From Strigamia acuminata (lineage: Eukaryota): DNA of 64,000 nt. Of the stretch, positions 4,210 to 44,738 are shown piece after piece. A program made the translations under genes and the position numbers. The notes below the pieces were generated by a model that worked only from the letters and a program-made list of their open reading frames with translations, had not been told where the DNA came from and made no database searches. The stretch covers positions 5,580,001 to 5,644,000 of the forward strand of contig OX442314.1 in the NCBI GenBank assembly GCA_949358305.1, read 5' to 3'. Numbering within the stretch: the first letter of the stretch is position 1; each line of letters begins with the position of its first letter.

Positions 4210-4594
4210 TTAATAGTTAAATCGATTATCCAAGCAGACTTTGAAGCAATTAAAACTGTTTACAATGAAAATATAGAAAGATAGTAATGACATTCCCAAA
4301 CCTGATCCTAGAATGCTGCCGATATCGCTTAACAATTGAGAGATTGGATATTTCTGTTTCTCTTCTATGTTCTCGGTGAAACTATCAGTGAATCGAATAG
4401 TTGCAACCGTGAAGAAATCAACTGCTAATTTAGCCCCATGGAAAATGGGTTGGTAAAATATATTTTCGCAAGGTTGTTTACATTTGCACTGTTTTTGATT
4501 CGAATCATAGTTCTTTAAGTATGTAAAATGAGAGATAGAAATATCTTTTGCGGTGTTACAGTCAGGCAAATTAGAAGTTACCATATATGGTAGT
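4210..4594 (-). CDS. Gene A exon 11: TM2 of repeat 2 and stop
   Basis: TTTCAG|LPYM...CKCKQPC...YPISQLLSDIGSILGSGLGMSLLSFYIF...NY*; GxS filter = GMS. Confidence 0.9.
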
Positions 4595-4769
4595 CTGAAA
4601 AATAAAAAGATCTAATTAATGAATTAAGAACAACAAAATGTGAAAATAAATAAAAATAAATGTGATAAAAGCAAATATAGATGTGTGAATTTGTAACCGA
4701 GCATGTTAACACGCAGCAATCTGCACTGAGGAGTGAATAAATTGAAAAGGTGTCAACCACTTATCATAC

Positions 4770-4879
4770 CTGCAGTTAATGCTTTGAAATAAATTGTTTT
4801 GCATGCAAGCGTTTTTACACATCACATAAGCAGTTTTGTTTTCTTCGCATGGATTGCGCTTGGTATTTCTTCGTACACT
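4770..4879 (-). CDS. Gene A exon 10 (repeat 2 thumb)
   Basis: AATAG|SVRRNTKRNPCEENKTAYVMCKNACMQNNLFQSINCR|GTATG; Cys spacing parallels exon 5. Confidence 0.85.
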
Positions 4880-4947
4880 CTATTTGATAAAATCAAGATT
4901 GGTATAAACTTGATGTACTGTAGTCTACATATTGTTTAATTAAATAC

Positions 4948-5043
4948 GTTAAATATTCGAAGTATTATTTCATTCGTCCAACCATATAATAAATCCAATG
5001 GTTCTAGAAGGTTCACTTCCTCTTCCTGGTTATTTAGGAATAA
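4948..5043 (-). CDS. Gene A exon 9 (repeat 2, equivalent of exon 4)
   Basis: TATAG|LFLNNQEEEVNLLEPLDLLYGWTNEIILRIFN|GTATTT; 96 nt, phase 0->0. Confidence 0.7.
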
Positions 5044-5248
5044 CTATATTAATAATATAGTACAAAATTAAGTGGCCTTGTGTGTCAGTTTTGGTTACTT
5101 AAAATTGATTTATTCAACTGAATGATAGTTAACCGAATGTAATTTGTAAAAAAAAATATTTCACAACCTACCAATACTATGTGGTGATCTCACTTTGTGG
5201 TGACCCAAAAAAAAGGAATGTTTGACACAAGAAGAAATTCTTAGCGTT

Positions 5249-6465
5249 TGTGGCGTCCTACTTTGTATAGGTTTAAATACTACTTAAGTGTGCTAACGTG
5301 GTTTACTTTACCTGTGATCGTTTATGTTAATACCCAAATAAATACTAAATGTATATGAAATGAACAAGGATTTATTCAATAGGCTTTTACGCCTTAAAAT
5401 ACACTCAGTAATATTCTATTGTATACTTTTTCCACACTCATTTTTGACCCTGGAAGCTGGGCTCCCATTGGCCGAGCCATTTCACCTGTGTAGTGATACA
5501 TAAAAGAAGACCGAAAACACCAGACTCAATACAAAATTCAAATAACATGTGCTTTCTAGACAAAGCAAGCACTAAAATGAAAAACAATTTGTTTTTAATT
5601 AAAAACACCATAAAACTATTTTTCAAAGATGGAAAACATGTTTTATTAGATAATAACATTGAATGTAAATAATTTCAAGCATTATTATTCAGGAATAGAC
5701 TAAAAATCATAAGGAACTACTTTTCCTCGTAGCAGTAGTTCCATTGCAGTTTTGAGTAATTGGACTAGGCCAATGGGAGCCCAGCTTCCAGGGTCAAGAA
5801 TGAGTGTAGAAAGAGTATAAAGTCGACTTGGTCAGAGTCGAACAAAGGATTTCTCAAGATGGCGTCTTCTGTTCCGTCAGGTCGCTGGAACAATGATGCC
5901 GTCTCGAGTAGTCGTTAATTCGTCGCGGATTCGTCGTTACGAACGCGGTGGAATGCTCAAAGAGTCTTCTATCCGTGTTGTCTACGGGTATGTTTTAGCG
6001 TCGCAGAGGCTTTGAGTCAGAACACGGGGCTCCGTACAAAGCGCTCGGACACTTGTTGGTGGGGAAATAATAACGGGGTGTTATTATTTCAGGTGTTTTC
6101 ACAAGTGCTATTTGTAGGAACAGCTCTCTTGTAAATCCGTGAGAGTTACAGTTGCACTTGGTTCAGCTGTCCTCTATCAATCCTAACTTATAGTTGAAGT
6201 TGGCCTGACGGTGAGGAAGTTGCTGTGTTCTTGGTGTCGTTTGTGAAGGTTCTGACTTTAGGCGGGAAACTCCACCTTTTATACAGTGGGGTTGGTGGGA
6301 ACGGTGTCATCCAATGGTGGCTGACCACCCGTCGCTCCACTCCCCTCGGGGCACACACCTGCTCGAAGGAGGCGGAGCCTACGCGAGGGAAACAACCCGC
6401 TTACTCGGGTGACTCAGATGAGAAGTATCTGCTCGGCGGGACACCTACCCATCTGGGTCACCACA
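5249..6465 (-). mobile_element. Solo LTR of a subfamily related to the Gypsy element at 34307, with an internal MITE
   Basis: TGTGGCG...CCACA flanked by 4-bp TSD CGTT; colinear with, but diverged from, the reverse complement of LTR 34307-35127. Confidence 0.85.
5422..5819. mobile_element. MITE with ~50-bp terminal inverted repeats inside the solo LTR
   Basis: TATACTTTTTCCACACTCATTTTTGACCCTGGAAGCTGGGCTCCCATTGGCC mirrored at 5768-5819. Confidence 0.7.
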
Positions 6466-6503
6466 CGTTGACCCCTTTTTGAGTCACCATAGAAAGGCTC
6501 ATC

Positions 6504-6575
6504 TGGAAATTCCATTGTTGCATTTTGGAAATTCCGTTGTTGCATTTTGGAAACTCCATTTTGCATTTTGAAACT
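6504..6575. repeat. Short tandem repeat (~22-bp unit TGGAAATTCCATTGTTGCATTT, ~3 degenerate copies)
   Basis: Direct inspection. Confidence 0.6.
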
Positions 6576-7374
6576 GGACAAGTTACTTCGAGTTATTGAT
6601 TGTAAGGCTTAAAGCCCTTGAATAAACTACTTTATTCCTTCTATATCTTGTAACAAGTATTATTTGGAGTAAACACAGATCACAGGTAAGTAAGACTAAC
6701 CACAAGAGTAACATCTTCTATAAGCTATTTAACAATACCGACAAAGGACGCAGCAACTTGTATTTTGATGCTTTAAGCATTAGATATGCAAAGGATTCAT
6801 AACCTCGATCAGAAAAGTTAACAGAAAGCAATGATACAAGTTCGCATCAATGTCATGGTGATATAAATTCTAGAAACAACTTAAAATGTTAAACTACGGA
6901 ATTTGTATCACCTTTTGGTTTCATGTAACTTAAACAATGATATTCTAATTAAGTGTTGAAGTGAAAAAGATTGAACCAACCCAATATTTAACGTACATAA
7001 AATTTTCTATTTTTGAAATATGTCGCCAGCTAGTGATAAACCCTTACATTAACTTTCCAAGTCATTTACAAGCAACTTAAGTTTAATGTAAATGTCTAAT
7101 TTACAGATGAAATTTAAGAAATGTGTAAATACTGTACAATGTTAATTTTCAAATTTCAATTTAATTTTCCAACAACTTTACAAAAACTGTAAAGCTTACA
7201 TTTACACATAAATTTTTGGAACATTTACAGTTCCTAAAGCCATATTTTCTCCAGTGGTAAAATTGTCACAAACTCAATTCTCATCAACTGGATTACTGGT
7301 CAACAAGAATTTAGTCAATTGGAACCTATCTTGACGAAATTCATGTGGGTTTCTGTTTATTGATTTTACCATAC

Positions 7375-7457
7375 CTTCATATGCTGGTAACACACTTCTG
7401 AAGGAAATAAGCGGTCAAATACAAATTCGAGGGGAACCATTTGGTTAGTTGTTTTTT
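7375..7457 (-). CDS. Gene A exon 8 (repeat 2, equivalent of exon 3)
   Basis: TTTTCAG|(E)KTTNQMVPLEFVFDRLFPSEVCYQHMK|GTATGG; phase 1->0 fits both neighbours. Confidence 0.65.
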
Positions 7458-7800
7458 CTGAAAAACAATGGAAAGATCTTTATCAATTTTCAAAAGTATC
7501 AGCAATTTTAATTACAGTTAAATACGGATTTGAAAAAAGCATTCGATTATTTTATGCACAATGGCCTTAAAATGAAAGAATGAACTTTACACGATTTTTG
7601 TCTAAAAACTGATTGTCCAATAGAATGATCGGGCTGATTGCTAATGTATATACAGTAATCTAGGAATAATTTGGGCAACCATTTCCAATTAGTCTAAAAT
7701 AAAACTTTAAAAAATTGCCAATTAATCCCATGCTGAAATGGTGGCAAATTAATAACCTCTTTAATTTTCCAAACCAAGCAATGTCATTAATGGGCTGGAC

Positions 7801-8068
7801 ACACAGGTTCAAATCCTGTTGTCTATGAAAGTTTTTATTTTTATTTTTTATTTACTTTTAGCAGTAATTTTAATGTTTGTAATTTTATATTTGTTAAAAA
7901 ATTAAAATTAATTGAATTAAAATTTTCTGAAAACAAATATAAAATTACAAACATTAAAATTACTGCTAAAAATAAATAAAAAATAAAGGTAAAAATTTTC
8001 ATAGACAACAGGATTTTAACCTGTGTGGAAAGATACCTAGTCCATTGCCTTAACCACTGGACCACCAC
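7801..8068. repeat. Foldback palindrome whose arm carries a tRNA-derived (SINE-like) head
   Basis: Arms 7801-~7895 and ~7930-8027 are reverse complements; minus strand GTGGTCCAGTGGTTAAGGC (A-box-like) and GGTT(C/A)AAATCC (B-box-like). Confidence 0.5.
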
Positions 8069-8920
8069 TACAAACTATTGTTGTCTTCATGAAGACAGTC
8101 ATGTTGGTGAACAAAGTTCTGATCATTGAATCTCAAATGATGAAATTACATCATTGAATGTCAAATGAAAAAATTCAACCTGGATCTTGGAACTATTTTT
8201 TACCTAGCAACAGTTGTTTACAATATTCCTCCGCAAGCCTAATTATTCCCAAAAGTGTACTATCACCATAGAAAGAGTCCAAATTTAATGTTTGATTTAT
8301 TTCTTTCTGCCTGTTCATGGCATAAAAACCTTTGGGCAGCTTATTTACCTGTTTGAGGTAAATAAATTCCTCAAAAATTGTGGTCATGACCGAAGAGTCT
8401 TATTGGTGCACTCCCCTTGTTAGTAGTGTGACAATGGGTATGCCACAGCCTCCATGAGTGGTTGCATGGAACATGCAGGTGAGTACAGCAGAATGTTGTT
8501 TTACCAACCTCGTCATACATGGGATTCTCACCGTGTGTGATGGTTCGGTTGCCGGTGTGGCTTGCCCTCATGGCACTACCAACACGCCGGGAGATGGGAG
8601 TCTCTAACCCCTAGACAAATGGATTAAAGGCCAACAACCAACAATCTGGAGTCTCTTGTCTTTCATTACGTGAGTATGCGTCCCAAACCATGGTAACCAG
8701 GTTAACCAGGCTGCCATGGCAACAACCATACCACTCAGTTAAAATGCCACAGGTGCAAAGAAGTGCCTTGTGTTGATTTCCAGACGGTAGAGGAGCTACT
8801 GTCACAGCAGCAGTTCAAAACAAATTTGTCACCTTGTCCCAAAAATCCCAAAAAATCCCAAATCACCCAACTTTACGGTATGTGTGTCTGTGAAATTACC
8901 TGCTGCAATTACATTCTTAC

Positions 8921-9005
8921 CTGAAATTATTTGTGAACAATGTCCAAAAGGGAGGGGAATAAGAGTTTTTGATGTGTTCAATACAGCTTTAAATCCACGA
9001 AAATA
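8921..9005 (-). CDS. Gene A exon 7 (repeat 2, equivalent of exon 2)
   Basis: TATAG|YFRGFKAVLNTSKTLIPLPFGHCSQIIS(G)|GTAAG; 85 nt, phase 0->1. Confidence 0.8.
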
Positions 9006-9064
9006 CTATAAACATCAAACAATTTAACATAATTTTCTTGTCGTGATTATATTTGAGAATATAC

Positions 9065-9160
9065 CTTATAAGATAACTGATCATCAAGAATGATTGTTTC
9101 GTGGACGTTGAGTTTGTTCCATATTTCTTCCAATGACAATTCGTTGCTGAACAATTGCCA
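9065..9160 (-). CDS. Gene A exon 6, 3' part (after the insertion)
   Basis: WQLFSNELSLEEIWNKLNVHETIILDDQLSYK|GTAT. Joins NNISP in frame when 9165-12687 and one TGGT TSD are removed; the paralog fragment at 24277 independently reads NNISPWQL. Confidence 0.85.
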
Positions 9161-9164
9161 TGGT

Positions 9165-12100
9165 TGTGACGGTGACGACCACAACTCCTATCGCATGATA
9201 GTACCGGGTATAAGTCGCGTGGAATAGTGAATAATACGAGATAAAATAAAGCCCAGGAGAAAAAGGTTCTGCAGAATTCTGCATGTTGTGCAGAAAAATT
9301 TTCTTCAGAAAAACTTACCAAATTCTGCAGAATTCTTCAGAAAAATGTTAACCTTTTCTGCAGAATATTTTCTGCAGAAAGCATTTTCTGCAGAAAAAAG
9401 TACCAAATTCTGCAGAATTCTGCAGAAAAATGTTAACCTTTTCTGCAGAATATCTGCAGAATTCTGAAAAAAAATAGATTTCCATACTTATACATTTACA
9501 AACTCAAATTTTTTTTCACCATATAAAGCCATTTAGTTTCTTTTAAAACCCATATTCAACAATTAGTTTTCATTGTTATTAGCACAAATTGCATGTTTTA
9601 TTAGTGAGTTTGCGGTTGCCAATTATTCCTTATAATTATGAGTTACAAGCTCATAATTATAATTATAATTCCTTCTTGAAATAGGCACTTGCGGTGCAAT
9701 AAATATATTTTATAAATTATACTTATAAATACCATGTAATGGTAGAACAAATCCCTATGCAAAAGAAAATGAAAATCTGTAGTTTTACTAATTTGACAGT
9801 TTTCAGACATGAAATTGTCTTCCAGTTTATTTATTTACTTACCTGGAATGATTTTAGTTGTTTCTATCCTTCGATGGCAGAAAGAAATTGTGATTGAGGC
9901 TGATTGTTGAAACAGGTCAGGCAGCCATTTTGAATTTGCATTAGCACCATCAGCGCCATTTGCAATAGTGGGAGGAGCTTCAAATAGTGTTACGCGATCT
10001 GATTGGCTCCCTTATTTTACAAAATAGTGTAAAAGTTGAGGAGTTACGTTATGTTATAAGTCCATTTTTATAATTATGAGCTTGTAACTCATAATTATAA
10101 GAAACAATTGGCAACCGCAAACTCACTATAGACATTTTTATTTATCTTTATTTAAATCTTTTAGTTTTTTTTCTTACCATGACCTCTGCTGGAATTGAAC
10201 CTGGGATCCATTGTTCTAAAGCCCAGTGCTCTATCCACTCGGCTTGTATAGCTTATACTATTGGAATGCATAACTTCTCTTATATAGTTACTTTTTCCGA
10301 AATGGTTTTAAATTTTCAAATAGTCTCAGCTTTAAATAAAACGTTTAAATAAATAAAGTTTAATTTAAAGAAGTTGTAAATGTTTATATGTGTATTAAAG
10401 AAACTAAATGCATCCATTCGGAAAATTTGATTTAAACTAAAAACAATAACTTCATCTTTTTGTTTAAAATTTCTGCGTAACTTTGCAGAAATGGAGAAGG
10501 AATAAATTCTGCACTTCATTCAGCGTCGAGGGGGTAGCCAATCGCAAAAATCCCGTACAAGATTCAATTTGAAATCCTTGAAGAGTTCATGAGATTTCAA
10601 GGATTTTGAAATCCAAAATCTTTGCCTGTACGAGATTTCCAACATTGGCTACCCTTTCGTTCGGCCTACAATTATTCTGCACAATTCTGCAGAAAAAAAA
10701 GATTTTCTGGCAAATTTTTTCGGCTGGCATTTTTTCTGCAGAATTCTGCAGAGAGAAAAAGATTTTCTGCAGAATTTTTTCTGCTGGCAAACTTTCTGCA
10801 GAATTCTGCAGATTCTTTTTACCTGGGAGACAACAAGTTTCTCAAAACACTACATTTATTGTTGTAAAACAATAGAATCAAATCTAAAAGTTATACATAA
10901 ACTAATGCCGACATTTGGCAAGTTAAAAGCACATTTAACTATACAATAAAATGGCCGAATGGCCCTAAAATAATAACATTACGGTTATTGGTGATCCTGG
11001 GTTCGGGAACGGCAAAACGCCCGCTCGACCGAGTTAAAAGATGTCATCTACGCGTAGCCGGGCTGGCTGTGTCCTCGCGGCTTCCGTCGGCGCTTCGTAA
11101 TCGTGGAACTGGTTCCTTCGCGTTCCGGGTTCGTATCGTGTAATGGTCCGTGTAATGCTGTTTGGTTCGATCCGAGAGGTGCGGTTGACTCATGTGCACC
11201 GCCACAACTAGGGTTGGAAATTGGTAATGAATAAATGAAGTCATTTATTCGCCAAGGTTCCGCTTGCGAATTATATTTAATTCGCGATGTTGTGAGTTTA
11301 ATAAATTAACTCAATAAATTATATTCAATTTATTGTTACGAATTTGATTCGTCATACAGTGAAATAAGTCTCGTGACTTACTTCGGTTGTTAACTTGTTG
11401 CCAAGTTTAAACAATTAAGGTGTATTTATCAACTACAAAATATAATAAAGGTTAAACATCGCAACACACAATTGCCGTCAAAGTTCGCCTTGCTGAGCAG
11501 AACAGTATCGCGCGTGCCCTAAATAACAGTGCGGTGAGAGACGGCACTGGTATTCAGGGGGATATAGCCCGCAGTTCTGCACAACAGAATTAATCACCCG
11601 AGATACTACTCATAAGTAGACTGCTTTGGCACCATCACCGAAGAGATATAACATTCCCAAACACATAGTGCTACTGGCGGTAACTGCATGTTTTGCATGC
11701 AGACTGCTTTGGCACCATCAGGTGATGGAGTCAATCTCTTGCAGTAACAGTGCTACTGACGGTTACTAAATACTTTGGTATCACACGTGATTCTATTGTC
11801 CGACCACGAGGATACTTATGCGGGAGGCTTTCTCCTCGGCAAGACCGTTTGACGGAAACATGAATAGTCCGAACTTCGCCTTCAGTTGACGGGGGTTGCA
11901 TGGCTCAGCAGAGATACTACCCGAGATGTTTGACACAAGAAGAAATTCTTAGCGTTTGTGGCGTCCTACTTTGTATAGGTTTAAATACTACTTAAATGTG
12001 CTAACGTGGTTTACTTTACCTGTGATCGTTTATGTTAATACCCAAATAAATACTAAATGTATATGAAATGAACAAGGATTTATTCAATAGGCTTTTACGC

Positions 12101-12687
12101 CTTAAAATACACTCAGTAATATTCTATTGTATACTTTTTCCACACTCATTTTTGACCCTGGTGGGAACTTTATACTCTTTCTACACTCACTCTTGACCCT
12201 GGAAGCTGGGCTCCCACCCGGTCCTACCGGACCATGCCCTGAGTAAGAAACGGCTATTTGACATGCGGAACATACCAAATAACCAGAAAACAAGACTAAC
12301 TTAACTTCCTGTTGTCAGGGAGTTTTATACTCGGTGGGATTAGGTTCCACCAATCTCGTATCGCAGGAAGTGGATACGGAGATGCAAATTGGGATTATGC
12401 TAATCTTTCAGCATAAACCGGAACTGGATACCGGGGACAGGAAATGGATACACAGAACGGAAATACATTCTGAAAATGGGTTTCGTGTCGCGCACCCGGG
12501 ATAAAGCAAGAATACCCGCTTTATCTTATTGAATATTGATAATATAACTTTATATTATCGATTTAGATTACATTTATTCGTAACAAACATAATAATATGT
12601 TTGTGAACTATTTCTGCGGAGAATAGTAAGTTCGAGGTTGAATTTGCCGCTAGTACTAGTGGCGCCATCTATTGCTAATTTGTCACA
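9165..12687. mobile_element. 3.5-kb non-coding LTR-like insertion (probable solo LTR) in gene A exon 6, with nested elements
   Basis: Termini TGTGAC...GTCACA; 4-bp TSD TGGT (9161-9164 / 12688-12691); removal restores the reading frame. Confidence 0.85.
9252..10827. mobile_element. Non-autonomous CACTA/EnSpm-like DNA transposon
   Basis: Termini CCCAGG...CCTGGG, 2-bp TSD AG, subterminal arrays of TTCTGCAGAA palindromes at both ends; degenerate tRNA-like head at ~10180-10245. Confidence 0.7.
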
Positions 12688-13375
12688 TGGTGATATATTA
12701 TTGAAGGATTTGTTAGTTTGTTTCACTAAATTCGATCTGGCTCCATCAATGTCATTATCTTGTGTTTCACCACAGACTGTGACAGACGGATATTTGGTAA
12801 AAGGTTGTGGAACTATTCTCACAATTTTTGTTGCCGGTTCTTCCATGTAGTAGTTTACACGAATTTGCAAGCAATACAATGTGATTCCCGAGCAAATTAT
12901 AACCAGAATTATCTTAAAATTAAGTGAAACTACATTTCTTTTAATTTGCTTTTGACTCTGAGTTATTTTCTTTCTGCATTTGTCATAAACTCGGTGAATC
13001 TTATTAACCGGTTTTTTTCTTCGAATGTTTGCTAGATACCAAGTGATTTCAGGCAACAAAGTTAAAGACAGACCGAGAAATAGGCCCAGATTGCCTCCTA
13101 AATCTGATAGTAAAGCAATAACATCATATGTGTACCGTTCTTCATACACGTTGATTTTATCATTAGTTATTGCTAACGATACGGATAAAGTGTTTTTATC
13201 ATCTGCTCGGCCTGCATCCGTGGATGGTATAAACATTAAATATTCACATGGACGTCGACATTGACAATCAGCAATTGGGTCGGTAGTTTCAATTAAACGA
13301 TTTGCAATACCATATAGTTCATGGGTGGTGTTTGAACATTTGCGAAGTGGTAAATCTATCTTTGTAAAGGGAAAT
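12688..13375 (-). CDS. Gene A exon 6, 5' part: TM2 of repeat 1, basic linker, TM1 of repeat 2
   Basis: One open frame: CQCRRPC...YDVIALLSDLGGNLGLFLGLSLTLLPEITW-(K/R-rich linker)-IILVIICSGITLYCLQIRVNYYMEEP...YPSVTVC...NNISP. Confidence 0.9.
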
Positions 13376-13444
13376 CTTGCAAAGAAGATTATTGATTAAT
13401 ATTTTGACTGTAGTTACTGTATAGAATATATTATGCATTCTTAC

Positions 13445-13551
13445 CTGCAAGTCAGATGTTTTTTAAATTTTTCCATTAAGCATGCACGGTAGCATTCTCT
13501 GTATTCGTTTTTGCTGGAACATGAACTCGTGGATGAATTGAGAAATATGAA
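13445..13551 (-). CDS. Gene A exon 5 (repeat 1 thumb, Cys-rich)
   Basis: TTTAG|FIFLNSSTSSCSSKNEYRECYRACLMEKFKKHLTCR|GTAAG; phase 2. Confidence 0.85.
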
Positions 13552-13612
13552 CTAAAATGTAAAAATTTATCGATATTGTGTGATAACTTTCAATTAAGAC
13601 TAAAAAATTTAC

Positions 13613-13705
13613 TTTGTTAAAACTCAAATTTATTTTTAATATTTCACCAAGCTTTGGTATTGTTACATCAAAGTGCCTGCCGAAATCGGAGAACGACATG
13701 AAAAG
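13613..13705 (-). CDS. Gene A exon 4 (repeat 1)
   Basis: TTAG|LFMSFSDFGRHFDVTIPKLGEILKINLSFNK|GTAAAT; 93 nt, homologous to 53942-54034. Confidence 0.8.
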
Positions 13706-13782
13706 CTAAGTAAAAATAAAAATAAAAATTTATAACAAAATTTTTATTTCGTGATTCATTAGTAATAATTTAGTATGCTTAC

Positions 13783-13874
13783 TAGGTATGGCGCAATAAG
13801 GCAAACATAATCATATTTATTTTCAATATTTATAGTCAATAATTTCCGAACCAACGATTTGCTAGTAGCTATAG
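13783..13874 (-). CDS. Gene A exon 3 (repeat 1)
   Basis: TTAG|(S)IATSKSLVRKLLTINIENKYDYVCLIAPYL|GTAAGC; 92 nt, homologous to paralog B exon 3. Confidence 0.75.
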
Positions 13875-13972
13875 CTAAATCCATAAATGAAATTTGTGTT
13901 ATCCACTAGGTTATGAATCATATACAGAGTATTGTATACTGTATATGATACTGTATGTCATGACTTATGACA

Positions 13973-14664
13973 TGTTGGATGTAATCGCACGCCACTACAA
14001 TACTTACTATTGTATATCTAAATCTATTGTTACATTAAATAAACCTCATTTTGCATGTATGTGCCGTTGCAATGAATATGTAGTATCGTGGGTTTTTCCT
14101 CATGAGGGATTCTGAAACATTCCACAACATGGGTTATGGGCCCAACATGATTTAAGAGCGGACAACATTTGATAAATCAAAATTAGAAGTCGGTGCCGCA
14201 GTTTATCACGTTTATTTCTCACGAAAAGAGGTACAAACAGGAAGATTCGAATAAAATGGCGGCCAAACTCGAACCCACCATTACTTACGTGAGAAGTTAA
14301 ATGGGCGTAATTACCCGACGTGGGAATATCGAGTGCGGATATTGCTCAAGTCAAGGGATGCGTGGTTCGTGATCGTTGATGATGTGCCAATTAAAACTCT
14401 AGGCGAAACCGATGATGCCTTCAAGGTAGGAGTTAAAGAATGGACGACCAAGGACGTTGAAGCGTTGAATATAATTTTGCAAACGATCGACACTGCTCAA
14501 CTACGGCACGTGTTGAACCACGACACGGCAAAGGCGGCTTGGAACGCACTCAAGACTGAGAATCAGGGTGAAGTTGCAGAATTGAAAGTCCAAAAGCGGG
14601 TCGGGCTTGCGCATATTCGAATGAAACCAGCGGAGACGGTGGCGACGTATCTGGATCGGATGAT
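13973..14664 (+). mobile_element. Truncated, degenerate Copia (short LTR, half-tRNA PBS, frameshifted gag start)
   Basis: LTR TGTTG...CAACA 13973-14129; GGTTATGGGCCCA at 14132-14144; gag-like EKLNGRNYPTWEYRVRILLKSRDAW...TAKAAWNALK. Confidence 0.75.
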
Positions 14665-14953
14665 ATTTTCCACGAGATTACATTGACACTCCCCCTGGCG
14701 GTGGAGAGCCTCAAACGGGATTTGTACATCAGATGAAAGGTGACACAAATTAAAACAACAGTAACGTTTGTATAACAAAATGGCACTTGAACAAACAGGT
14801 TCAAGCACATTGTTGTATTTAAGTGGATTAAGTTAGAATAAAGAATTGTGACCGCTTGGCCACCCACGGTGAACTGCGTCACTCCACACACCGCCCAGTG
14901 GCCCTAAGACCGTCCACCTTCGCAGGGTGGACTGGCCCACCTAGGGAAGGATG

Positions 14954-17900
14954 TGTTAGGTTGACGTTTTCCTGTTTGTCCTCGCATCCGCGTAGATCAT
15001 CGGATTGCATATTGTGGATAAATGCAATCAGTGTGTTGCCATGTTGATGTCCCGTATTGCAGTCGGTTGATTCTGGTTTTTAATCCCAATGCTGGTTTTG
15101 TACCGCAACCGACTCCTATTACGTGACAACACACACAACCTGTCATCTGCTCAAATGAGCACTTATTGTTTATGTTGTTCTGTTTGTTTTATCCATTAGT
15201 TTTGTCTTTCTGTAAAGAACAAGTCAGTGTATTGAAACAATGATTTGTTCTATGATTTCATTGTGTTTGAGATCGAGGGCGATTAGCCTCGAACCAGGTT
15301 TTATGTTACACACATACTTTTGTAATAAAAGATGGCGGACGCGTGTCCGATTTATCCGCCCAGCCAAAATGATGTTTCCGAGTTATTTCGACAGCGCACA
15401 GGCCATTGCAACTCTTCAAAGTGGTAGCAGAGGGTAAAAACGGTCTGGCAACGATGTTTTTGAAGAAGAAACGGCCATTTTGCGACTACGAGAAGTCGCC
15501 GAGTGTGCGCCCGCCCAGCTCGTCGTAAAAACGAGTTTTTGGTGCGGATTTCATCGCGGAACTTATCGTGGATTCGTGTGCGGAGTTTACAACGAGGTTC
15601 GAGTGTTTTTGTGAACGTTTCCAGCACGGAAAATACGTGTTGTCAACGTCCCGACGTCGTGGGAAAAAGCGACGATCGGATTTATCGTGTTTCGAGATTT
15701 CTGCAAGTGCGTGCGAATCCCGGCGCTTTGTAGGAATTTTCTACGGTGTTGTGTGCCCAACTAGACACACTATTGGATTACCAAGGACGGTAGGAACAAT
15801 TGTCGATTTTATTTTTGGCGAAATAAGCCATTTTTTCAAACGAATCCACGCCCGATGAAATCCAAGATGGCGGCGGCCATCGTTCATCGTGTCTGCGCTT
15901 GAACACGGACGTTTTCAAGCAGTTTTGGGATATCCAGCGCTGGAAATTAACAACGTTGGACACCATTAGAACCGTGGGAAGGATATCCGACAATCGGCGG
16001 AATTTTCGAAGCGTTATTTACGTCGCTTCGACGAATTTCGAGCGACGAGCGAACGTTTAGCAAACGAGACGAGTTTGCCGACGATTTCAAGAGGAAACCC
16101 TGGTTTTGCACATAGGGTGCACCAGTTGAGAGGGATTCTCCTCACATTAGCACCCCGGCGTGCGTGTGAGTTAATTCGACGGCGACGAGGTGGCATACCG
16201 TCATTTTTCCCTCGTTTTGTGCGACGTGCGCATACGAGAAGGCACGTCAGCCCATTTCCGTGCAGGATCAACGTTTTGCGGCGTGGGATCTCATCACGGA
16301 AGCCACCTTCACACCGACAGTGTACATTTATTTATTATCTCGTGAAACTCTGTTAGTTTTAAGGTTTTGTTGTGGTCCCCTGTTAGAATCGGTGCTACCC
16401 TACGTCCAGTCGGGCACGTAGCACTGTATTCTTGGCTAGGCTTATCCACGGCCACCCAACCATCCCGCGGGCCCCAGGAGGCGCGAACGGAAGAGTTGGG
16501 GGATTGCTAGTCAAGGTTTTTCAATCTCACTTATTGAGATTCCCCGGGTTGTGTGCATTATTCGCCTTCAATTTTGGGGGAATTCTGCATCCGTGCGACG
16601 AATTTACGTGGTTTGTGTAACTTGTGCTTCGGTTCTTCACTAAATTTCGTCGCAAATTTCCCGAAATGGCGTCCTACGACCGCCATGATGATTACAAGGA
16701 CGTGAAAAAGTTGGACGGAACCAACTATCCGACCTGGAGCGTACAGGTACAGCTCCTCCTCCAATCGTACGGTGTTTGGGGCCACGTGACCGGCAAGACA
16801 AAAGAGCCGCCGGCCGGATCACCGTTTCGAGAGACAAGGGATTTTGAGAAAGGCGAAGAAAGGGCCCGCTCCACCATTTGTTTGGCTTGCGGCGAGGCCC
16901 AACAGGTCGTGGCGGTTGCCCAGGCCACTGCTAAAGAAGTGTGGGAGGCACTGAAAGCTGCCTACCAGCCCACGACCCGGGCACGCAAAGCCCGTCTTCG
17001 CAGGGAATTTTTAGACATGCGGTTGCATGAAAACGAAGAGATGTTTGTTTTCACCGCACGTGTTGATCGGAAAGTAGTACAGCTTGCAGATGTCAAGATT
17101 CAAATTTCTGATGAGTTTCACGCCTTTCAATATCTTGACCTGCTGCCACCCCAATACGAACCGGTCAAGCAGACGGTTTATCACTGGGGTGACACAGAGT
17201 TCACGGCAGCAGCGGTCAAGGAACGCCTGGTAGGCGAATACAACCGCCTACATGTAACAACCGACGAGTTTGGCGTGCCTTCCAAGGCGCCATTGGAGAA
17301 CACTGGTGCCTTCTTTAACCAAGGCGGAAGACAACGCGGACGTGGTGGAAATGCACCCGGCGGCCCACGCATCTGTTTTACTTGCGGTGGGACGGGCCAC
17401 TTCGCCCGTGAATGCCCTACTCCACCGAAACAGCAATTCCAAGCAAAAGGAAACCAAACTGGACAATTTAGAGGCAATCCACGGGGCAAGGGACGTGGAA
17501 GAGGCCAGCAAAAGGCCACTGTCACACAGGCTGACATATTCAGTGACTCTCCAGTCTCTTATTACTCCGCGGCGATTTGGCTTCAACAACAACCCCCTGT
17601 GCCGGCTTCCCACGTGTCTCACGCGAATTATGATTCGCAATGGTACGTCGACACAGGGGCGACGGACCATTTCTCCTTCAACAAAGACTGGTTCTCCGAC
17701 TTCAAGCCATTAACTGGCCACGTGCAACAGGGAGAAGGAAAGTCGAGAATCGAAGGAATAGGAAATGTGACGTTGACATCGATTTATGGAACCCGCACCC
17801 GTGCAATTACATTGCATAATGTATTTTATGCACCCAACTTTAGGAAGAATTTGATTTCGTTGGGTCGCACGGATGAAGCTGGGGCAACGACCATGATTAA

Positions 17901-20900
17901 AAATGGCAAAATGGTTATTTATAACGACAAAATTGATGACCCTTCCATCACTGCGGAACGCACGAGTGATCGGATGTATAAGGTCAATTGTCGTATTTCC
18001 CCTGTGAACACTGCCGCATTACCTGCGCAACAGGCTGCGACAGTGTCTCCTAGTCCGCTTATAAAAGGCGATGAAGTTGTAAATTCGATACTAACATACC
18101 CTAGTTTTAAGGACGCATTAACCCAAAATTCGAGTGAGTCAGGGAAACCTGCACCAGCGATAAAGGGGCAAGCGAGTGTTGCGAACAACGCGCCTGCGAA
18201 TGTTACGACTAATGCGCAAGCGAATGTTTCGAATAAAATTAAGGCAAAGATTGCCAATGCCTCTAAGGAGGCAGGTTCAATTGTGCAGAACAATGCAGAC
18301 ATAGCAGAGAATGGAAAAAATTCTACTAATGGGGTTAAAACTTTTGACAAGAAAGATAAGGCTCAAACGATGGACATTTGGCACTCCCGCCTAGGGCATT
18401 TAAATGCAAAGGGAATTGCGGGATTAGAAAAGTCAACTGATGTTTTTGGGCTGAAACTCTCGAATAAGGAGTTGTCGACGTGTGACTTTTGCGCCAGGGC
18501 GAAGAGTACACGTGCTAGTTTTCCCCCAATAATTGGAATTACGACAAAAAGCATTTTGGAAATAGTACACTTAGACGTGTGGGGCCCCGCTCCAGTTCAA
18601 ACATTGGGTGGGGCATACTATTATCTCATTCTCATCGATGATTTTTCCCGTTTTATGTGGATAATTATCATGAAACGGAAAAGTGACGTTTTAGGACATT
18701 TCAAGCGGTGGCTACTTGAAGTTGAGCGAACGACCTCTAAGAAGGTAAAGGCCATAAAAACCGATAATGGAGGGGAATTCATATCTAGACAATGGGACGC
18801 TTATGTGGCGACAATTGGGCTTAAGTGTATGAGGACTAATGCATACAGCCCAGAAATGAATTCGGTCGCCGAACGGGCGAACCGTACCATTCTTAATGGT
18901 ACTCGGGCACTTCTTTTTGAGAATAAATTTCCCGCCACTTTATGGGCAGAGCTTGCTGTTTCAGTTGTATATCTGAAAAACCGTTTTCCACATACGGGAA
19001 TTGGGGGAAAAACACCTTATTCTGTGTTTTATGATAAGAAATTGTCCCTTCGCCATGTCAAGTGCATTGGCTCATTGACTTATGTCCATATCCCAGCTCA
19101 GACTCGGGGTGGGAAATTACAAGACAGGGCATGGGCTGGGGCATTAATTGGATATGCCGCTTCTACACGCGGCTACAGAATTTGGGATCCAAATAAAAAT
19201 CAGGTGTTTTTGTCTAAACACGTCAAAATTTTTGAAAACAATTTCTGGTTTGAATTGGGGACGGTTACGTCGCCTGAATTGGAGAATGACTTTGATACTT
19301 CGAGTTCGGACTCGTTCAATGGGTCATTTTCTGACGACGACAGTGTTGTCGGTGACCCAATTCCGGCGGAAATCCCGGAACCCCCTCCTGCGATACAGGA
19401 GGTTCCACAACCTGCTCCGCAGCAGAAAGTGAAACCCGCATTGCCCACGACCCCAAAGCCTACTCTTAGACCTGAATTGAGGCCAGTCGCTAAACAGGCA
19501 GCTCAGCAACCCCCACTTATACCCGTTGAGGGGAACCCTATTCTTGGGGATAGGGAAACAGGGGATGAGCCTGTTGAAGAAATTGGTGGGGCGAAGGGGG
19601 ATGATGGGAATTACTTCAACATCTATCCTGACAATGATGGGGAACCTGAAATTCCTCCTGGGATTCAAACACGGCGTGGATCACGATCAAAGAAAAAGCA
19701 AGGGAACGTGATGTTACATCCGGAACTACTGCCGTTAAACATGGCGGAATGGGAACGACGCGCATCCGTCCGTAAAGACGGAGCGACGGCGGGACAAATA
19801 GATGTTGTTTACATCACGCCCTTAAAGGATAAGATAAGAAGTCGAGTTGACATCGCACGGTGGTGCGATGAAGAAGGGTACGCATATGATGCGACCTTAT
19901 TTGACTTTAAGACATTAGAGGGGGACGGTGAACCGTTAGGGTTTGCAGGTTTCTGTGCCGTCGAGCCAGAAACCTACGAAGAAGCCATGTACCACATCAA
20001 GCGTCCTGATTGGATAAAAGCCATGAGAGAGGAAATTGATGTGTTCGATGAAAGAACGGTTTACAAGGAAGTTGACAAAACAACTTTAGATGAGGGTACG
20101 ACTCTCTTGGGATCGAAATGGATATACAAAATGAAGCGCGACCACACGGGTGTTATCCAACGCTATCGAGCCCGACTCGTCGCACAGGGCTTTAAGCAAA
20201 AGCCCGGAGTTGACTTTACGGAGGTGTTCTCCCCCGTCGTCAACTTCGTGCTAGTGATAGTGTTCTTCTGCACTTTGGTGATACTCAAGGGATGGCGGGA
20301 TTTACACCTGGATATCAAGGCCGCGTACCTTTACGGGGACCTCGATACGGTACAGTACATGGAGATCCCCAAGGGATATCGTACCGCCCATAATAAGCAT
20401 AAATGCTGGATGCTTTTAAAAGCACTTTACGGATTACACCAGTCCGGTCGTATGTGGTACCAGGTCCTCCACATACGACTACTTGAATTGGGCTTTCAAC
20501 CGTTGTTGGGTTTAAACTGTGTCTATGCCCTAGACAACGATGCAATAGTCATCTTTTACGTGGACGATATCGTGTTGTTTTCCAAGGATGACTATGTGGA
20601 ACAATGCGTTTTGAAGTGGTTACGGGAATCGTTTGAAGTAGTGAGTCTGGGGCCCGTAACTTTACTTTTAGGAATTGAGTTTGATAGGTCCGGGGGCATG
20701 ATTAAAATCCACCAACGGAAATATATTGAAAAGCTTTGTAAAGCGTACGGGATTGACTCGTGCCATCGAGTAAAGGTTCCAGTAACCCCGGGAACCATGA
20801 TTCAAGGTGTAAGAACCGGGGAAAAAGCCGACACCTCATTCCCGTACAGATCTCTGGTCGGAAGTCTGTTGTTCATCGCCAGCCGAACCAGACCCGACAT

Positions 20901-21986
20901 ACTGTTTTCAGTAATAGTGCTTTCCCAGTATAACGAGACGCATTCGACGCGCCATGTCAATATGTTACTGCAGGTCCTGCGATATTTGGCCACCACGTCG
21001 AATTATTCGATTAACTTATCGAACTGTAAAAACGAGAATTTGACAGTTTACACCGACGCGTCGTTTGCCCTAGATCAAGACAGACGACGAAGCTTTGGGG
21101 GACATATTGTCTATATGGGTGGCATTCCCATCTCGTGGAATTGCCACAAACAATCGATGACCTCCCTGTCGATCATGGAGAGCGAATTTCTCGCCGTGGT
21201 CGATGGGGTGAAAGAAGTTATTTGGCTCGAGCGCCTTTACGACGCGAAGATAATGTTTTGTCTCGAGCGAAATACGCCCTGTGTTTTTGCGGATAGCCAG
21301 CCGGCTATCCAATACTGTAAGAATAGGATCGAGAACAGGGCAAATAAACATATAGACGTGAAGCTCCATTTCGTTAGAGATTGGTTTGAGAAAGGAACGT
21401 TTTTGATCGAGCATGTTTCCGGCGAATTAAATGTCGCGGATATTCTGACGAAATGGTTAGCTAAATCCAGATTGAACGCGCTATGCGAATACATCTTTGT
21501 AATTGACAAATAGCTAAACGAAGGGGGATTTGTTAGGTTGACGTTTTCCTGTTTGTCCTCGCATCCGCGTAGATCATCGGATTGCATATTGTGGATAAAT
21601 GCAATCAGTGTGTTGCCATGTTGATGTCCCGTATTGCAGTCGGTTGATTCTGGTTTTTAATCCCAATGCTGGTTTTGTACCGCAACCGACTCCTATTACG
21701 TGACAACACACACAACCTGTCATCTGCTCAAATGAGCACTTATTGTTTATGTTGTTCTGTTTGTTTTATCCATTAGTTTTGTCTTTCTGTAAAGAACAAG
21801 TCAGTGTATTGAAACAATGATTTGTTCTATGATTTCATTGTGTTTGAGATCGAGGGCGATTAGCCTCGAACCAGGTTTTATGTTACACACATACTTTTGT
21901 AATAAAAGATGGCGGACGCGTGTCCGATTTATCCGCCCAGCCAAAATGATGTTTCCGAGTTATTTCGACAGCGCACAGGCCATTGC
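14954..21986 (+). mobile_element. Copia LTR retrotransposon 2 carrying an MBD-like domain (CopiaMBD type)
   Basis: 5' LTR 14954-15418; PBS TGGTAGCAGAGG 15422-15433; PPT ~21516-21528; 3' LTR 21531-21986 matches the 5' LTR but lacks the last 9 nt; intact polyprotein. Confidence 0.95.
16666..21513 (+). CDS. Copia gag-PR-IN-MBD-RT-RNaseH polyprotein (1615 aa from ATG 16666)
   Basis: KLDGTNYPTW; CFTCGGTGHFAREC; WYVDTGATDH; WHSRLGH..CDFC; HLDVWG/TDNGGEF/AER; MBD-like segment; RARLVAQG, YVDD; ADILTK. Confidence 0.95.
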   Translation: MASYDRHDDYKDVKKLDGTNYPTWSVQVQLLLQSYGVWGHVTGKTKEPPAGSPFRETRDFEKGEERARSTICLACGEAQQVVAVAQATAKEVWEALKAAYQPTTRARKARLRREFLDMRLHENEEMFVFTARVDRKVVQLADVKIQISDEFHAFQYLDLLPPQYEPVKQTVYHWGDTEFTAAAVKERLVGEYNRLHVTTDEFGVPSKAPLENTGAFFNQGGRQRGRGGNAPGGPRICFTCGGTGHFARECPTPPKQQFQAKGNQTGQFRGNPRGKGRGRGQQKATVTQADIFSDSPVSYYSAAIWLQQQPPVPASHVSHANYDSQWYVDTGATDHFSFNKDWFSDFKPLTGHVQQGEGKSRIEGIGNVTLTSIYGTRTRAITLHNVFYAPNFRKNLISLGRTDEAGATTMIKNGKMVIYNDKIDDPSITAERTSDRMYKVNCRISPVNTAALPAQQAATVSPSPLIKGDEVVNSILTYPSFKDALTQNSSESGKPAPAIKGQASVANNAPANVTTNAQANVSNKIKAKIANASKEAGSIVQNNADIAENGKNSTNGVKTFDKKDKAQTMDIWHSRLGHLNAKGIAGLEKSTDVFGLKLSNKELSTCDFCARAKSTRASFPPIIGITTKSILEIVHLDVWGPAPVQTLGGAYYYLILIDDFSRFMWIIIMKRKSDVLGHFKRWLLEVERTTSKKVKAIKTDNGGEFISRQWDAYVATIGLKCMRTNAYSPEMNSVAERANRTILNGTRALLFENKFPATLWAELAVSVVYLKNRFPHTGIGGKTPYSVFYDKKLSLRHVKCIGSLTYVHIPAQTRGGKLQDRAWAGALIGYAASTRGYRIWDPNKNQVFLSKHVKIFENNFWFELGTVTSPELENDFDTSSSDSFNGSFSDDDSVVGDPIPAEIPEPPPAIQEVPQPAPQQKVKPALPTTPKPTLRPELRPVAKQAAQQPPLIPVEGNPILGDRETGDEPVEEIGGAKGDDGNYFNIYPDNDGEPEIPPGIQTRRGSRSKKKQGNVMLHPELLPLNMAEWERRASVRKDGATAGQIDVVYITPLKDKIRSRVDIARWCDEEGYAYDATLFDFKTLEGDGEPLGFAGFCAVEPETYEEAMYHIKRPDWIKAMREEIDVFDERTVYKEVDKTTLDEGTTLLGSKWIYKMKRDHTGVIQRYRARLVAQGFKQKPGVDFTEVFSPVVNFVLVIVFFCTLVILKGWRDLHLDIKAAYLYGDLDTVQYMEIPKGYRTAHNKHKCWMLLKALYGLHQSGRMWYQVLHIRLLELGFQPLLGLNCVYALDNDAIVIFYVDDIVLFSKDDYVEQCVLKWLRESFEVVSLGPVTLLLGIEFDRSGGMIKIHQRKYIEKLCKAYGIDSCHRVKVPVTPGTMIQGVRTGEKADTSFPYRSLVGSLLFIASRTRPDILFSVIVLSQYNETHSTRHVNMLLQVLRYLATTSNYSINLSNCKNENLTVYTDASFALDQDRRRSFGGHIVYMGGIPISWNCHKQSMTSLSIMESEFLAVVDGVKEVIWLERLYDAKIMFCLERNTPCVFADSQPAIQYCKNRIENRANKHIDVKLHFVRDWFEKGTFLIEHVSGELNVADILTKWLAKSRLNALCEYIFVIDK

Positions 21987-22410
21987 TGAGTGGTGTGGTG
22001 AGAGAGACGGAGCCAAGGAAGCAGAGAGGACAAACTTAGAGTCAAGTTGAGAGATTCAAGTAAAGGCATGAAGGTGCTGACTCTGCTCTTCTCACCATTC
22101 ACCACTGTGACGCTCAGTAACATGGCGATGTGCCTGTTGCAGCCTCCATGAGCAGACATATGGGTCGTACTGGGTAAGTACGACAGAATGTCTGTCAGTG
22201 ATCGACCACATCACCCATGGGGTTCAGGCCCTGTGTGTGACCAGTCTGTTGTTGATGTAGCGTGCATAACAGCACTGCCACACATGGATAGATGCTTAGT
22301 TGTTTTTTTTGTTTTTCATTTCAAACAATTCATACAAACTTAAACATGGATTATTCCAATATTAAGACCTGCACCACTATACATAGTAAATGTTTTATGT
22401 TTATAGTTAC

Positions 22411-22483
22411 AAAATTTAAATGTTGAGCATATTCCATATGAAGTGTCAGTTTCTGTCAGTGCAACCGTTTTGTTTGAAAATCC
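22411..22483 (-). CDS. Gene A exon 2 (repeat 1)
   Basis: TTCAG|GFSNKTVALTETDTSYGICSTFKF|GTAACT; 73 nt, same length as the paralog B exon. Confidence 0.8.
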
Positions 22484-22546
22484 CTGAATAAATCAAATTT
22501 AAGTTAAATTCAATCTTTTAATTTTTAAAAATGACTTATTTTTTAC

Positions 22547-23041
22547 CTTCATTTTTGTGCTGACAATCTCTTTGGTTAAATTGGTCGCTCTCCAAAGTTC
22601 ATCCATATTATAAGTTGGAATTTTCATCAGACGTTTCATCATGTTTCCACATTCATAGTTGGGGGAATACAGATCATCCACAACATTTGTAAAAGTTTTA
22701 TTCCAAAGCCTGACCATTTCTTTCGTGTTACAACTACAGATCATCAAATTTGGTAACACAATATCTTCCGATTTGCTCATTACGTCAACAGCCGTAGGAT
22801 AACTTAAGTAATGCATTACTCTATCGTAGGTCTGATAAGTGAGCATGCATGTGCAAAATAGGAGCAAAATTAGCCAAAATATATGACGTCTGCTCCAATG
22901 TTTTCTACTGCTTACGAAATCATCCAGACCAATTAAACTGCAGTTTGGTTTTTTGGCGTCATCTTTTATCACACGTTGAATTTCTGTGCGTAGTTTTCTT
23001 AATCTTCGCATATTTCTTACCATCAAGTAATTTTTCTGCAT
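22547..23041 (-). CDS. Gene A exon 1: N-terminus, TM1 and beta1-beta2 of DEG/ENaC repeat 1
   Basis: NCSLIGL...RRHIFWLILLLFCTCMLTYQTYDRVMHYLSYPTAVDV...LPNLMIC; donor AAG|GTAAAA, phase 0. Confidence 0.85.
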
Positions 23042-29194: not shown

Positions 29195-29792
29195 AATTGT
29201 TCAACAACAATTTATGATTTGATGAAATCTGGGAAAAAATCAACGTCCACGAAACAGTCACACTTAATAATGAATTAGCTGATAAGGTATATTTCTTAAT
29301 ATAACCATGGCTAAAATATTATATTAAATTATTTAATATTTATAGTATTTTCGTGGATTAAAAACAATGCTGAATGCATCAAAAAGTCTTATTCCCCTTC
29401 TTTTTAGACATTATACACAAGTAAATTCAGGTTAGTTTTAATGGGGCCGAAATTCTCACGTTTATTCATCACATGAGATGCAAAATTTATCAAGTGCAAC
29501 AGGGGAAAATCAGTTTTCACACTTATTCATCATTGCAGCTGTGGAATAAGCCTGAAAACTGTCTTTTTCCTGGGTTTCTCTACTGGTATTTACCGGTATC
29601 AAAAACCATTATTTTTAAGAAAATACCCAATACCGAATACCGTCTTTAGTTCGATATTGGTACCGGTTTCTTCAGTTAGGGGTCGCTGCGATAGTGGCAT
29701 TTATAATGGACGTTGAATGGCATTTTTTTAAACATAAAAATGCGAAATTATCGATTTTTTAACTTAAAAATGTGAGTTTTTCGATTTTTATA

Positions 29793-44720: not shown

Positions 44721-44738
44721 ATTCAGCTTCGTCTGCGC
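44687..44738 (+). promoter_or_regulatory. -1 programmed ribosomal frameshift signal (gag->pol)
   Basis: In-frame slippery heptamer A AAA AAC 44687-44693, 6-nt spacer, stem GCGCAGGCG...CGTCTGCGC; the -1 frame is open from here into pol. Confidence 0.8.

What the first reader, a model, noticed from the sequence alone, without database searches (positions are those of the whole stretch)
4210..23041. Natural concatemer: two DEG/ENaC channel subunits fused in one 4-TM polypeptide
Seen: within one exon (13375-12688) the TM2/filter of one subunit (LLSDLGGNLGLFLGLS) is followed, with no stop or intron, by a ~40-aa Lys/Arg-rich linker, a second TM1 and YPSVTVC. A second full ectodomain and TM2 (LLSDIGSILGSGLGMS) follow. 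The intron-phase series 0,1,0,0,2 occurs twice, as expected from tandem duplication with fusion of last exon to first exon. The repeats are strongly diverged, so the fusion looks old. Established: DEG/ENaC subunits normally have two TMs with cytoplasmic termini and assemble as trimers. Inference: a covalent heterodimer would fix stoichiometry (dimer plus a separate monomer), need linker cleavage, or form a non-trimeric assembly. I cannot tell from sequence alone whether such fusions are already described in this lineage.
Basis: partly seen in the sequence, partly recalled or inferred. Interest (0 to 1): 0.9.

Follow-up and report, generated by a model that had tools for sequence, protein, structure and literature searches.

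The report
Centipede ion channel with fused subunits
A gene family, most likely of soil centipedes, encodes two sodium-channel (DEG/ENaC) subunits in one reading frame, which would pre-fix two of the three places in a likely sensory channel, but the copy in this window is interrupted by a mobile-element insertion and no transcript has yet been seen.

Summary
The fusion is real. One exon runs without stop or intron from TM2 of one DEG/ENaC unit through a 39-aa basic linker into TM1 of a second; intron phases 0,1,0,0,2 repeat twice. It is not a one-off: 34 of 150 database hits carry a TM2-to-TM1 junction, 15 of the 21 looked up are Strigamia maritima proteins, and first and second units sort into two separate clades, pointing to one old fusion that then multiplied. 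Both halves of a relative fold like the centipede antennal channels BRTNaC1/PDPNaC1. No RNA evidence was obtained. Likely mechanism: tandem plus a separate single subunit gives an asymmetric trimer. Decapod shrimps hold independent three-unit chains. Ten literature searches found no natural DEG/ENaC concatemer.

The parts
22547..23041 (-). Exon 1: N-terminus, degenerate pre-TM1 motif (IG in place of HG), TM1 of unit 1
   Evidence: Pfam ASC 4-89, E 3e-12; model
22411..22483 (-). Exon 2 (phase 0 to 1)
14949..21986 (+). Young Ty1/copia-type element inside intron 2 (LTRs 99.8% identical, 1630-aa ORF 16621-21513); not part of the coding sequence
13783..13874 (-). Exon 3 (phase 1 to 0)
13613..13705 (-). 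Exon 4 (phase 0 to 0)
13445..13551 (-). Exon 5 (phase 0 to 2), thumb cysteines of unit 1
12688..13375 (-). Fused exon 6, 5' part: end of ectodomain 1, TM2 of unit 1, linker, TM1 and PxxTxC motif of unit 2
12919..13035 (-). 39-aa basic linker between TM2 (unit 1) and TM1 (unit 2); no stop, no Met, no intron
   Evidence: gapless paralog contigs span it
9165..12687 (.). 3,523-bp multi-copy composite mobile-element insertion splitting exon 6; 4-bp target duplication at 9161-9164; in-frame stop at 12576-12574
9065..9160 (-). Fused exon 6, 3' part (ends phase 0)
8921..9005 (-). Exon 7 (counterpart of exon 2; phase 0 to 1)
7375..7457 (-). Exon 8 (phase 1 to 0)
4948..5043 (-). Exon 9 (phase 0 to 0)
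4770..4879 (-). Exon 10 (phase 0 to 2), thumb cysteines of unit 2
4210..4594 (-). Exon 11: end of ectodomain 2, TM2 of unit 2 (DIGS in place of DxGG), stop
   Evidence: Pfam ASC 332-450, E 1.5e-11
33634..54199 (+). Paralog, exons 1-5 of unit 1 (86% DNA identity in exon 1), exon 3 split by a 19.2-kb LTR block (34307-53527); exon 6 not found up to the window end
24278..29430 (+). Remnant of a further paralog's unit 2 (end of exon 6, exon 7), split by a copia element (24319-29195) and carrying a stop

Best explanation
The gene belongs to an old, expanded family, most likely of geophilomorph centipedes, in which two diverged DEG/ENaC subunits lie in one reading frame; intact members likely make one four-TM protein that fills two of the three places of a trimeric sensory channel and would be completed by a separately encoded single subunit, while this window's copy is split by an insertion and is probably inactive. 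Steps: (1) shown - tandem duplication and loss of the stop fused the last exon of copy 1 to the first exon of copy 2; (2) shown - the fused gene multiplied as a unit and kept a short basic linker; (3) predicted - both units fold as BRTNaC1-like subunits with the linker in the cytoplasm as a helical extension of TM2 plus a short loop; (4) inferred - unit 2, which lost the pre-TM1 segment and changed the second Gly of DxGG, acts as a fixed modifying subunit, giving an asymmetric pore; (5) inferred - a free single-unit DEG/ENaC closes the trimer, and the family serves heat, acid or chemical sensing in the antenna.
For: Junction open in one exon and doubled intron phases. S. maritima T1JEH2 is 60% identical over 98% of the fused exon. 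34 of 150 hits have TM2 followed by TM1 in one chain; 21 of the 34 were looked up, 15 are S. maritima. In 22 of 22 Strigamia-type junctions that I picked, GxS to YxxxP spans 71-99 aa and K+R exceeds D+E. Whole-unit tree, 59 rows: 18 of 18 second units in one clade (SH-aLRT 91, with one fragment labelled single), 14 of 15 first units in another (93); TM2-region tree agrees for last units (96). Paralog contigs in two DNA runs cross TM2-linker-TM1 without gaps at about 87% identity. An unnamed 1,154-nt contig encodes the junction in one 241-aa ORF (P0019). dN/dS 0.33 over 194 codons against the neighbouring paralog. AlphaFold2 of relative P0013: pLDDT 76.8, pTM 0.70, TM2 helix 359-408, loop, TM1 423-452; unit 2 matches BRTNaC1 at Z 21.2 (324 aligned, rmsd 3.8) and unit 1 PDPNaC1 at Z 20.6 (316, 3.4). 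Both units keep 8 thumb cysteines. Fourth position of DxGG is Gly in 23 of 23 first units, 1 of 9 second units. Closest solved relatives are trimers and antennal sensors. Engineered ASIC concatemers form functional trimers (PMC10329638, passages).
Against: No transcript was seen across the linker; all S. maritima entries are uncharacterised gene models and many are partial or mis-assembled (T1JEH2 has a duplicated N-terminus and lacks the last TM2). Clade supports are under 95, from the quick search, and one first unit (P0118) falls outside; no formal one-clade test was run. The 31 best-supported differences from paralogs in exon 6 are 10 synonymous to 21 non-synonymous, not distinguishable from neutral (p 0.31). 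All three family copies in this window are disrupted. No partner subunit is identified, and nothing here measures stoichiometry; the angle between the two units in the model could not be read. The role of the DxGG glycine in the gate is recalled from chicken ASIC1, not from a call.
Confidence: 0.5

Rival explanations
1. The 4-TM protein is made but assembles without a partner and keeps three-fold pores: two tandems give a trimer with one unit left dangling, or three tandems give two linked trimers (clustered channels).
For: Needs no second gene; incomplete incorporation of tandem subunits is a known behaviour of engineered constructs (title of PMC2234567 in search listing); linker of 31-44 aa beyond the helices is flexible at its end.
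Against: Unit 2 keeps the full fold and all thumb cysteines over deep divergence, which argues against a habitually idle unit; linker length is tightly held, as for a fixed neighbour geometry.
Confidence: 0.2
2. Two tandems form a four-subunit (dimer-of-dimers) pore, as K2P and two-pore channels do, breaking the family's trimer rule.
For: Two-unit chains tile evenly only into even-numbered rings; second-unit TM2 carries a larger residue at the second Gly of DxGG in 8 of 9 cases, which a wider ring could hold; a tetrameric state has been claimed for ASIC1a (PMC4529235, title and abstract start only).
Against: The DEG/ENaC entries I read about are trimers, including both centipede relatives; each unit superposes on trimer subunits at Z about 21; independent decapod fusions stop at three units, matching a trimer.
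Confidence: 0.12
3. The two units end up as separate proteins: the linker is cut, or transcripts start or end inside exon 6.
For: The linker is rich in dibasic sites; one ATTAAA and several GT dinucleotides lie in it; 18 of 22 junctions have a Met before the second TM1.
Against: The linker is cytoplasmic by topology and charge, out of reach of lumenal convertases (established knowledge); this copy and 3 relatives have no Met before TM1 of unit 2 and no stop after TM2 of unit 1; linker sequence is not conserved beyond length and charge.
Confidence: 0.1
4. The family is mostly decaying or mis-annotated: read-through fusions of neighbouring genes that are not expressed.
For: Three of three copies in the window are disrupted; no RNA holder; gene models do merge tandem genes (P0023 and P0009 have closely similar units).
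Against: The junction lies inside one exon, so it cannot be a splicing artefact of annotation; position-specific clades, open linkers at 25-60% identity and dN/dS 0.33 need long selection.
Confidence: 0.08

Closest known systems
BRTNaC1 (Scolopendra heat-activated DEG/ENaC; PDB 8YMR/8YMW; PMC9974506)
   Same: Best sequence hit among solved chains (E 4e-10 for the fused exon) and best fold match (Z 21); compact ectodomain; centipede.
   Different: 431 aa, two TMs, one unit per chain; only about 20-30% identical; the window gene has two units in one chain.
PDPNaC1 (Scolopendra proton-gated channel; PDB 9JF7; PMC12714832)
   Same: Second-best solved relative (E 3e-7; Z 20.6); also lacks a canonical HG motif.
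   Different: 421-aa homotrimer; no fusion.
ASIC / ENaC / FaNaC / pickpocket (Pfam ASC PF00858)
   Same: TM1-PxxTxC, cysteine-rich thumb, DxGGxxGxxxGxS TM2 in each unit.
   Different: Two TMs per chain and non-covalent trimers; here four TMs per chain, and unit 2 departs from DxGG and lacks the pre-TM1 segment.
Engineered ASIC concatemers (PMC10329638)
   Same: C-terminus of one subunit joined to the N-terminus of the next on the cytoplasmic side; functional.
   Different: Artificial, three units, full tails plus 19-aa linkers; the natural one has two units and only about 39 aa between the helices.
Internally repeated channels: K2P, TPC (two repeats), Nav/Cav (four repeats) - recalled
   Same: Works like them in principle: duplication and fusion fix subunit order and let repeats specialise.
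   Different: Unrelated fold; their repeat number divides the tetramer evenly, two does not divide three.

Membership tests
DEG/ENaC (Pfam ASC) | ASC profile match above the curated cut-off | tested here: met
   Exons 1, 6 and 11 score 46.8, 51.7, 44.4 bits against cut-off 23.6; the spliced model itself was not scanned with Pfam, own TM1/TM2 profiles give order 1-2-1-2
DEG/ENaC (Pfam ASC) | Hand-shaped ectodomain with cysteine-rich thumb between two TM helices | tested here: met
   8 cysteines in register in each unit; model of relative P0013 matches BRTNaC1/PDPNaC1 at Z 20.6-21.2 for each half
DEG/ENaC (Pfam ASC) | TM2 with DxGG and GxS belt | tested here: met
   Unit 1 DLGG...GLS; unit 2 keeps GMS but has DIGS
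DEG/ENaC (Pfam ASC) | Two TMs per polypeptide | tested here: not met
   Four hydropathy peaks in the 800-aa model; each unit meets it, the chain does not - this is the variant feature
DEG/ENaC (Pfam ASC) | Pre-TM1 HG motif | tested here: not met
   IG in unit 1, segment absent in unit 2; PDPNaC1 also lacks a canonical HG, so not disqualifying
DEG/ENaC (Pfam ASC) | Trimeric assembly and cation conduction | not testable with these tools
   Tandem plus a full monomer, or two tandems, exceeds the 1000-residue limit; no functional data
BRTNaC1/PDPNaC1 orthology | Supported clade with these channels | tested here: inconclusive
   P0049 (431 aa, same matched range as BRTNaC1) lies in the same broad group (SH-aLRT 91) but outside both unit clades
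Intact, expressed gene (this copy) | Uninterrupted reading frame | tested here: not met
   Insertion in exon 6 and stop at 12576-12574; six weak in-frame splice bypasses exist on paper

The most novel reading that the evidence does not exclude
Arthropods have repeatedly turned the trimeric DEG/ENaC channel into a covalently linked one: geophilomorph centipedes built a large receptor family on a two-unit chain that either recruits interchangeable single subunits (a combinatorial sensory code with a fixed scaffold) or forms the family's first four-subunit pore, and decapod shrimps independently evolved complete single-chain trimers - the DEG/ENaC counterpart of the Kv-to-Nav transition.
Probability: 0.55. 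Interest if true: 0.88.

Novelty: new variant of a known kind. Interest (0 to 1): 0.76.

Why it matters
DEG/ENaC channels are textbook two-helix subunits that trimerise. A natural two-unit chain poses a clean arithmetic problem (two does not divide three) that one expression experiment can settle, and it bears on the old trimer-versus-tetramer dispute and on how heteromer order is fixed. It shows repeats specialising inside one chain (pore Gly changed only in unit 2). It points to an overlooked, expanded candidate sensory receptor family in eyeless centipedes, and the search turned up three-unit chains in farmed and wild shrimps. Such genes are easy to miss because curation pipelines split 'fused' models (PMC5952958, passage).

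Tried and rejected
No whole genome is held for this window, so copy number could not be counted. No RNA holder listed; run X6 laid 0 contigs on the fused exon: no evidence either way. Metagenome scan: 72 pattern matches, none confirmed. Word-index search with T1JEH2 returned only itself among 6,173 candidates. Single-sequence fold of T1JEH2 failed (pLDDT 31.9). ESM Atlas for P0013 gave only ASC clusters of 376-485 aa; the query for the shrimp protein did not complete. Complex prediction was not run: the informative assemblies exceed 1000 residues and the two halves would pass by likeness to solved trimers. Summed contig depth (about 10-fold over unique contigs on the linker; far higher on TM2) is only a hint of many paralogs, not a copy number. 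12688 as a splice donor: rejected (TG). Furin-type cleavage: judged unlikely on topology. Junctions in P0032, P0039, P0085 (gaps 132-340 aa) and P0017 (overlap) are counted in the 34 but are probably mis-predictions. Literature: ten answered searches listed no paper on natural DEG/ENaC concatemers; subscription papers are not covered, and of the 57 supplements of PMC4244043 only file 57 and a few small ones could be searched.
Full report
Observation. The minus strand from 13374 reads without a stop through the end of a DEG/ENaC ectodomain, TM2 (LLSDLGGNLGLFLGLS), a 39-residue linker with 13 Lys/Arg and one acidic residue, a second TM1 and YPSVTVC. Pfam ASC hits exon 1, this exon and the last exon above cut-off. 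Using the nearest database protein as a guide I placed all exons: 23041-22547, 22483-22411, 13874-13783, 13705-13613, 13551-13445, 13375-12688 plus 9160-9065, 9005-8921, 7457-7375, 5043-4948, 4879-4770, 4594-4210. All ten introns are GT-AG, phases run 0,1,0,0,2 twice, the model is 800 aa with one terminal stop and four hydropathy peaks, and the halves align at 21.6% (E 5.5e-12).

Position 12688 is followed by TG, not GT. It is the edge of a 3,523-bp insertion with 6-bp inverted ends and a 4-bp target duplication; the exon resumes at 9160, and the S. maritima relative is continuous over this point. With the insertion kept, the frame gains 37 foreign residues and stops at 12576-12574: 553 aa, three TMs. 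The insert is multi-copy along its whole length and a contig in run X6 ends its match exactly at 12687; it holds nested repeats. Six in-frame bypasses through weak GT/AG sites exist on paper. Runs X1 and X2 have contigs that cross the junction unchanged (8876-9191, 8870-9191), while run X3, same species label and another study, has a contig identical over 8878-9164 that continues with 13 other letters. I could not read those letters, so a polymorphic insertion allele is probable, not shown.

The fusion is a family. The fused exon is 60% identical over 98% of its length to Strigamia maritima T1JEH2. The exhaustive search gave 165 hits, 150 listed; with my own TM1 and TM2 profiles 34 of the 150 have TM2 followed by TM1 in one chain (four of them look like mis-predictions). 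I looked up 21 of the 34: 15 S. maritima, one unnamed 1,154-nt contig, and one each of Penaeus, Palaemon, Halocaridina, Polypedilum and Helobdella. The window's organism is therefore inferred to be a Strigamia-like centipede (halves 46-60% identical to the best S. maritima proteins). In 22 Strigamia-type junctions (the model plus 21 hits that I chose; multi-unit P0005/8/9/31, P0017, P0032 and non-myriapod chains left out) the spacing from GxS to the next YxxxP is 71-99 aa, median 77, and all are basic. In a 59-row tree of whole units, 18 of 18 second units form one clade (SH-aLRT 91; it includes P0093, an N-terminally incomplete entry) and 14 of 15 first units another (93), with mirrored sub-groups (quick search, supports under 95, no one-clade test). 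This fits one old fusion that then duplicated as a unit. In the window's own species, paralog contigs cross TM2-linker-TM1 without gaps in X1 (12845-13072, 30 differences) and X3 (12845-13099, 32 differences). Against the neighbouring paralog dN/dS is 0.33 over 194 codons; the 31 best-supported differences in exon 6 (of about 400 listed or hidden) include no stop but are not distinguishable from neutral (10 synonymous, p 0.31).

Structure. The complete S. maritima member P0013, folded with a 53-row alignment, gives pLDDT 76.8 and pTM 0.70; TM2 of unit 1 continues as a long helix (359-408), a low-confidence loop follows, then TM1 of unit 2 (423-452). Each half matches the centipede antennal channels best: residues 423-775 to BRTNaC1 at Z 21.2, residues 51-379 to PDPNaC1 at Z 20.6, ASICs at about 15. 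The same two lead the sequence search of solved chains. BRTNaC1 is a heat-activated two-TM antennal channel (PMC9974506, passages); PDPNaC1 a proton-gated homotrimer without a canonical HG motif (PMC12714832, abstract start, passages and section 7). Unit 2 is specialised: it lacks the roughly 21-residue pre-TM1 segment, and the second Gly of DxGG is kept in 23 of 23 first units but 1 of 9 second units. From recall of chicken ASIC1 this Gly lines the gate.

Mechanism. Shown: fusion, expansion, conserved linker length and charge. Predicted: two complete subunit folds joined in the cytoplasm. Inferred: since two does not divide three, the chain most likely supplies two adjacent subunits and a free single-unit DEG/ENaC the third, giving an asymmetric pore of fixed order (0.5). 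Rivals: self-assembly with a dangling unit or linked trimers (0.2), a dimer-of-dimers tetramer (0.12), separation into two proteins (0.1), a non-expressed or artefactual family (0.08). I put the existence of real 4-TM products at about 0.8. A sensory role rests only on the nearest characterised relatives, at 20-30% identity. This copy is probably inactive in the sequenced animal.

Wider pattern. Decapod proteins carry three TM2 motifs in one chain: Penaeus (1001-1093 aa, middle ectodomain shrunken; five Logan contigs of 3.4-4.0 kb hold the whole ORF, possibly transcripts), Halocaridina (1289 aa, order 1-2-1-2-1-2), Palaemon and several unnamed ones. Their units group by position in the TM2-region tree and apart from the centipede ones, so this looks like an independent, complete single-chain trimer. 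S. maritima P0005/P0008 and Polypedilum P0023 also show three units, but with closely similar units, which may be merged gene models.

Novelty. Ten library searches listed nothing on natural DEG/ENaC concatemers. Term look-ups found no 'fused', 'fusion' or relevant 'tandem' in PMC8438182 and PMC9822975, no 'fused' or 'fusion' in PMC5203786, nothing on multi-unit ENaCs in the 8 passages of PMC7067487, and no ENaC term in the main supplementary text of the S. maritima genome paper (most other supplements not searchable). Engineered concatemers are known and functional (PMC10329638, passages). The library lacks most subscription papers, so 'not described' is limited to these searches. Verdict: a real, apparently undescribed architecture within a known family; the weak points are the broken state of this copy and the lack of any transcript or functional data.

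Noticed in passing
Proteins P0040/P0151-P0155 (Penaeus vannamei XP_069977668.1), P0136 (Halocaridina rubra KAK7013173.1), P0057 (Palaemon carinicauda XP_068238851.1), unnamed P0026, P0034, P0063, P0074: Three DEG/ENaC units in one chain of 1000-1290 aa, units grouping by position in the tree; middle ectodomain shrunken in most. Candidate natural single-chain trimers, independent of the centipede fusion; whole ORF present on five 3.4-4.0-kb Logan contigs.
   Followed up: partly
Proteins P0005, P0008, P0009, P0031 (S. maritima where named) and P0023 (Polypedilum vanderplanki): Two or three closely similar units per model; either recent concatemers or merged tandem genes.
   Followed up: partly
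window 24278-29430 (+) and 12687-9165: Two different elements inserted within a few bases of the same spot of exon 6 in two paralogs (4-bp and 5-bp target duplications); coincidence or insertion hot spot.
   Followed up: no
window 33634-54199 (+): Paralog with exon 3 split by a 19.2-kb block with matching LTRs that holds gypsy-type and BEL/Pao-type ORFs (35190-38108, 38642-43876, 44681-48823, 49861-52662); a second similar element runs from about 55300 to the window end. Element types named from ORF features by recall.
   Followed up: no
window 49861-52662 (+) and 56190-58991 (-): A 933-aa Pro/Arg-rich extra ORF lies after pol inside both copies of the gypsy-type element, near-identical and intact in both; function not examined.
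   Followed up: no
window 13058-13147, run depth: Summed contig depth over TM2 is about 20 times that over the linker in X1 and X3, with loose ends showing other sequences after TM2: a hint of a very large DEG/ENaC repertoire in this species.
   Followed up: no
window 14949-21986 (+): Very young copia-type element (LTRs 99.8% identical, intact 1630-aa ORF) in intron 2, nested in an older copia remnant near 14255-14686.
   Followed up: no
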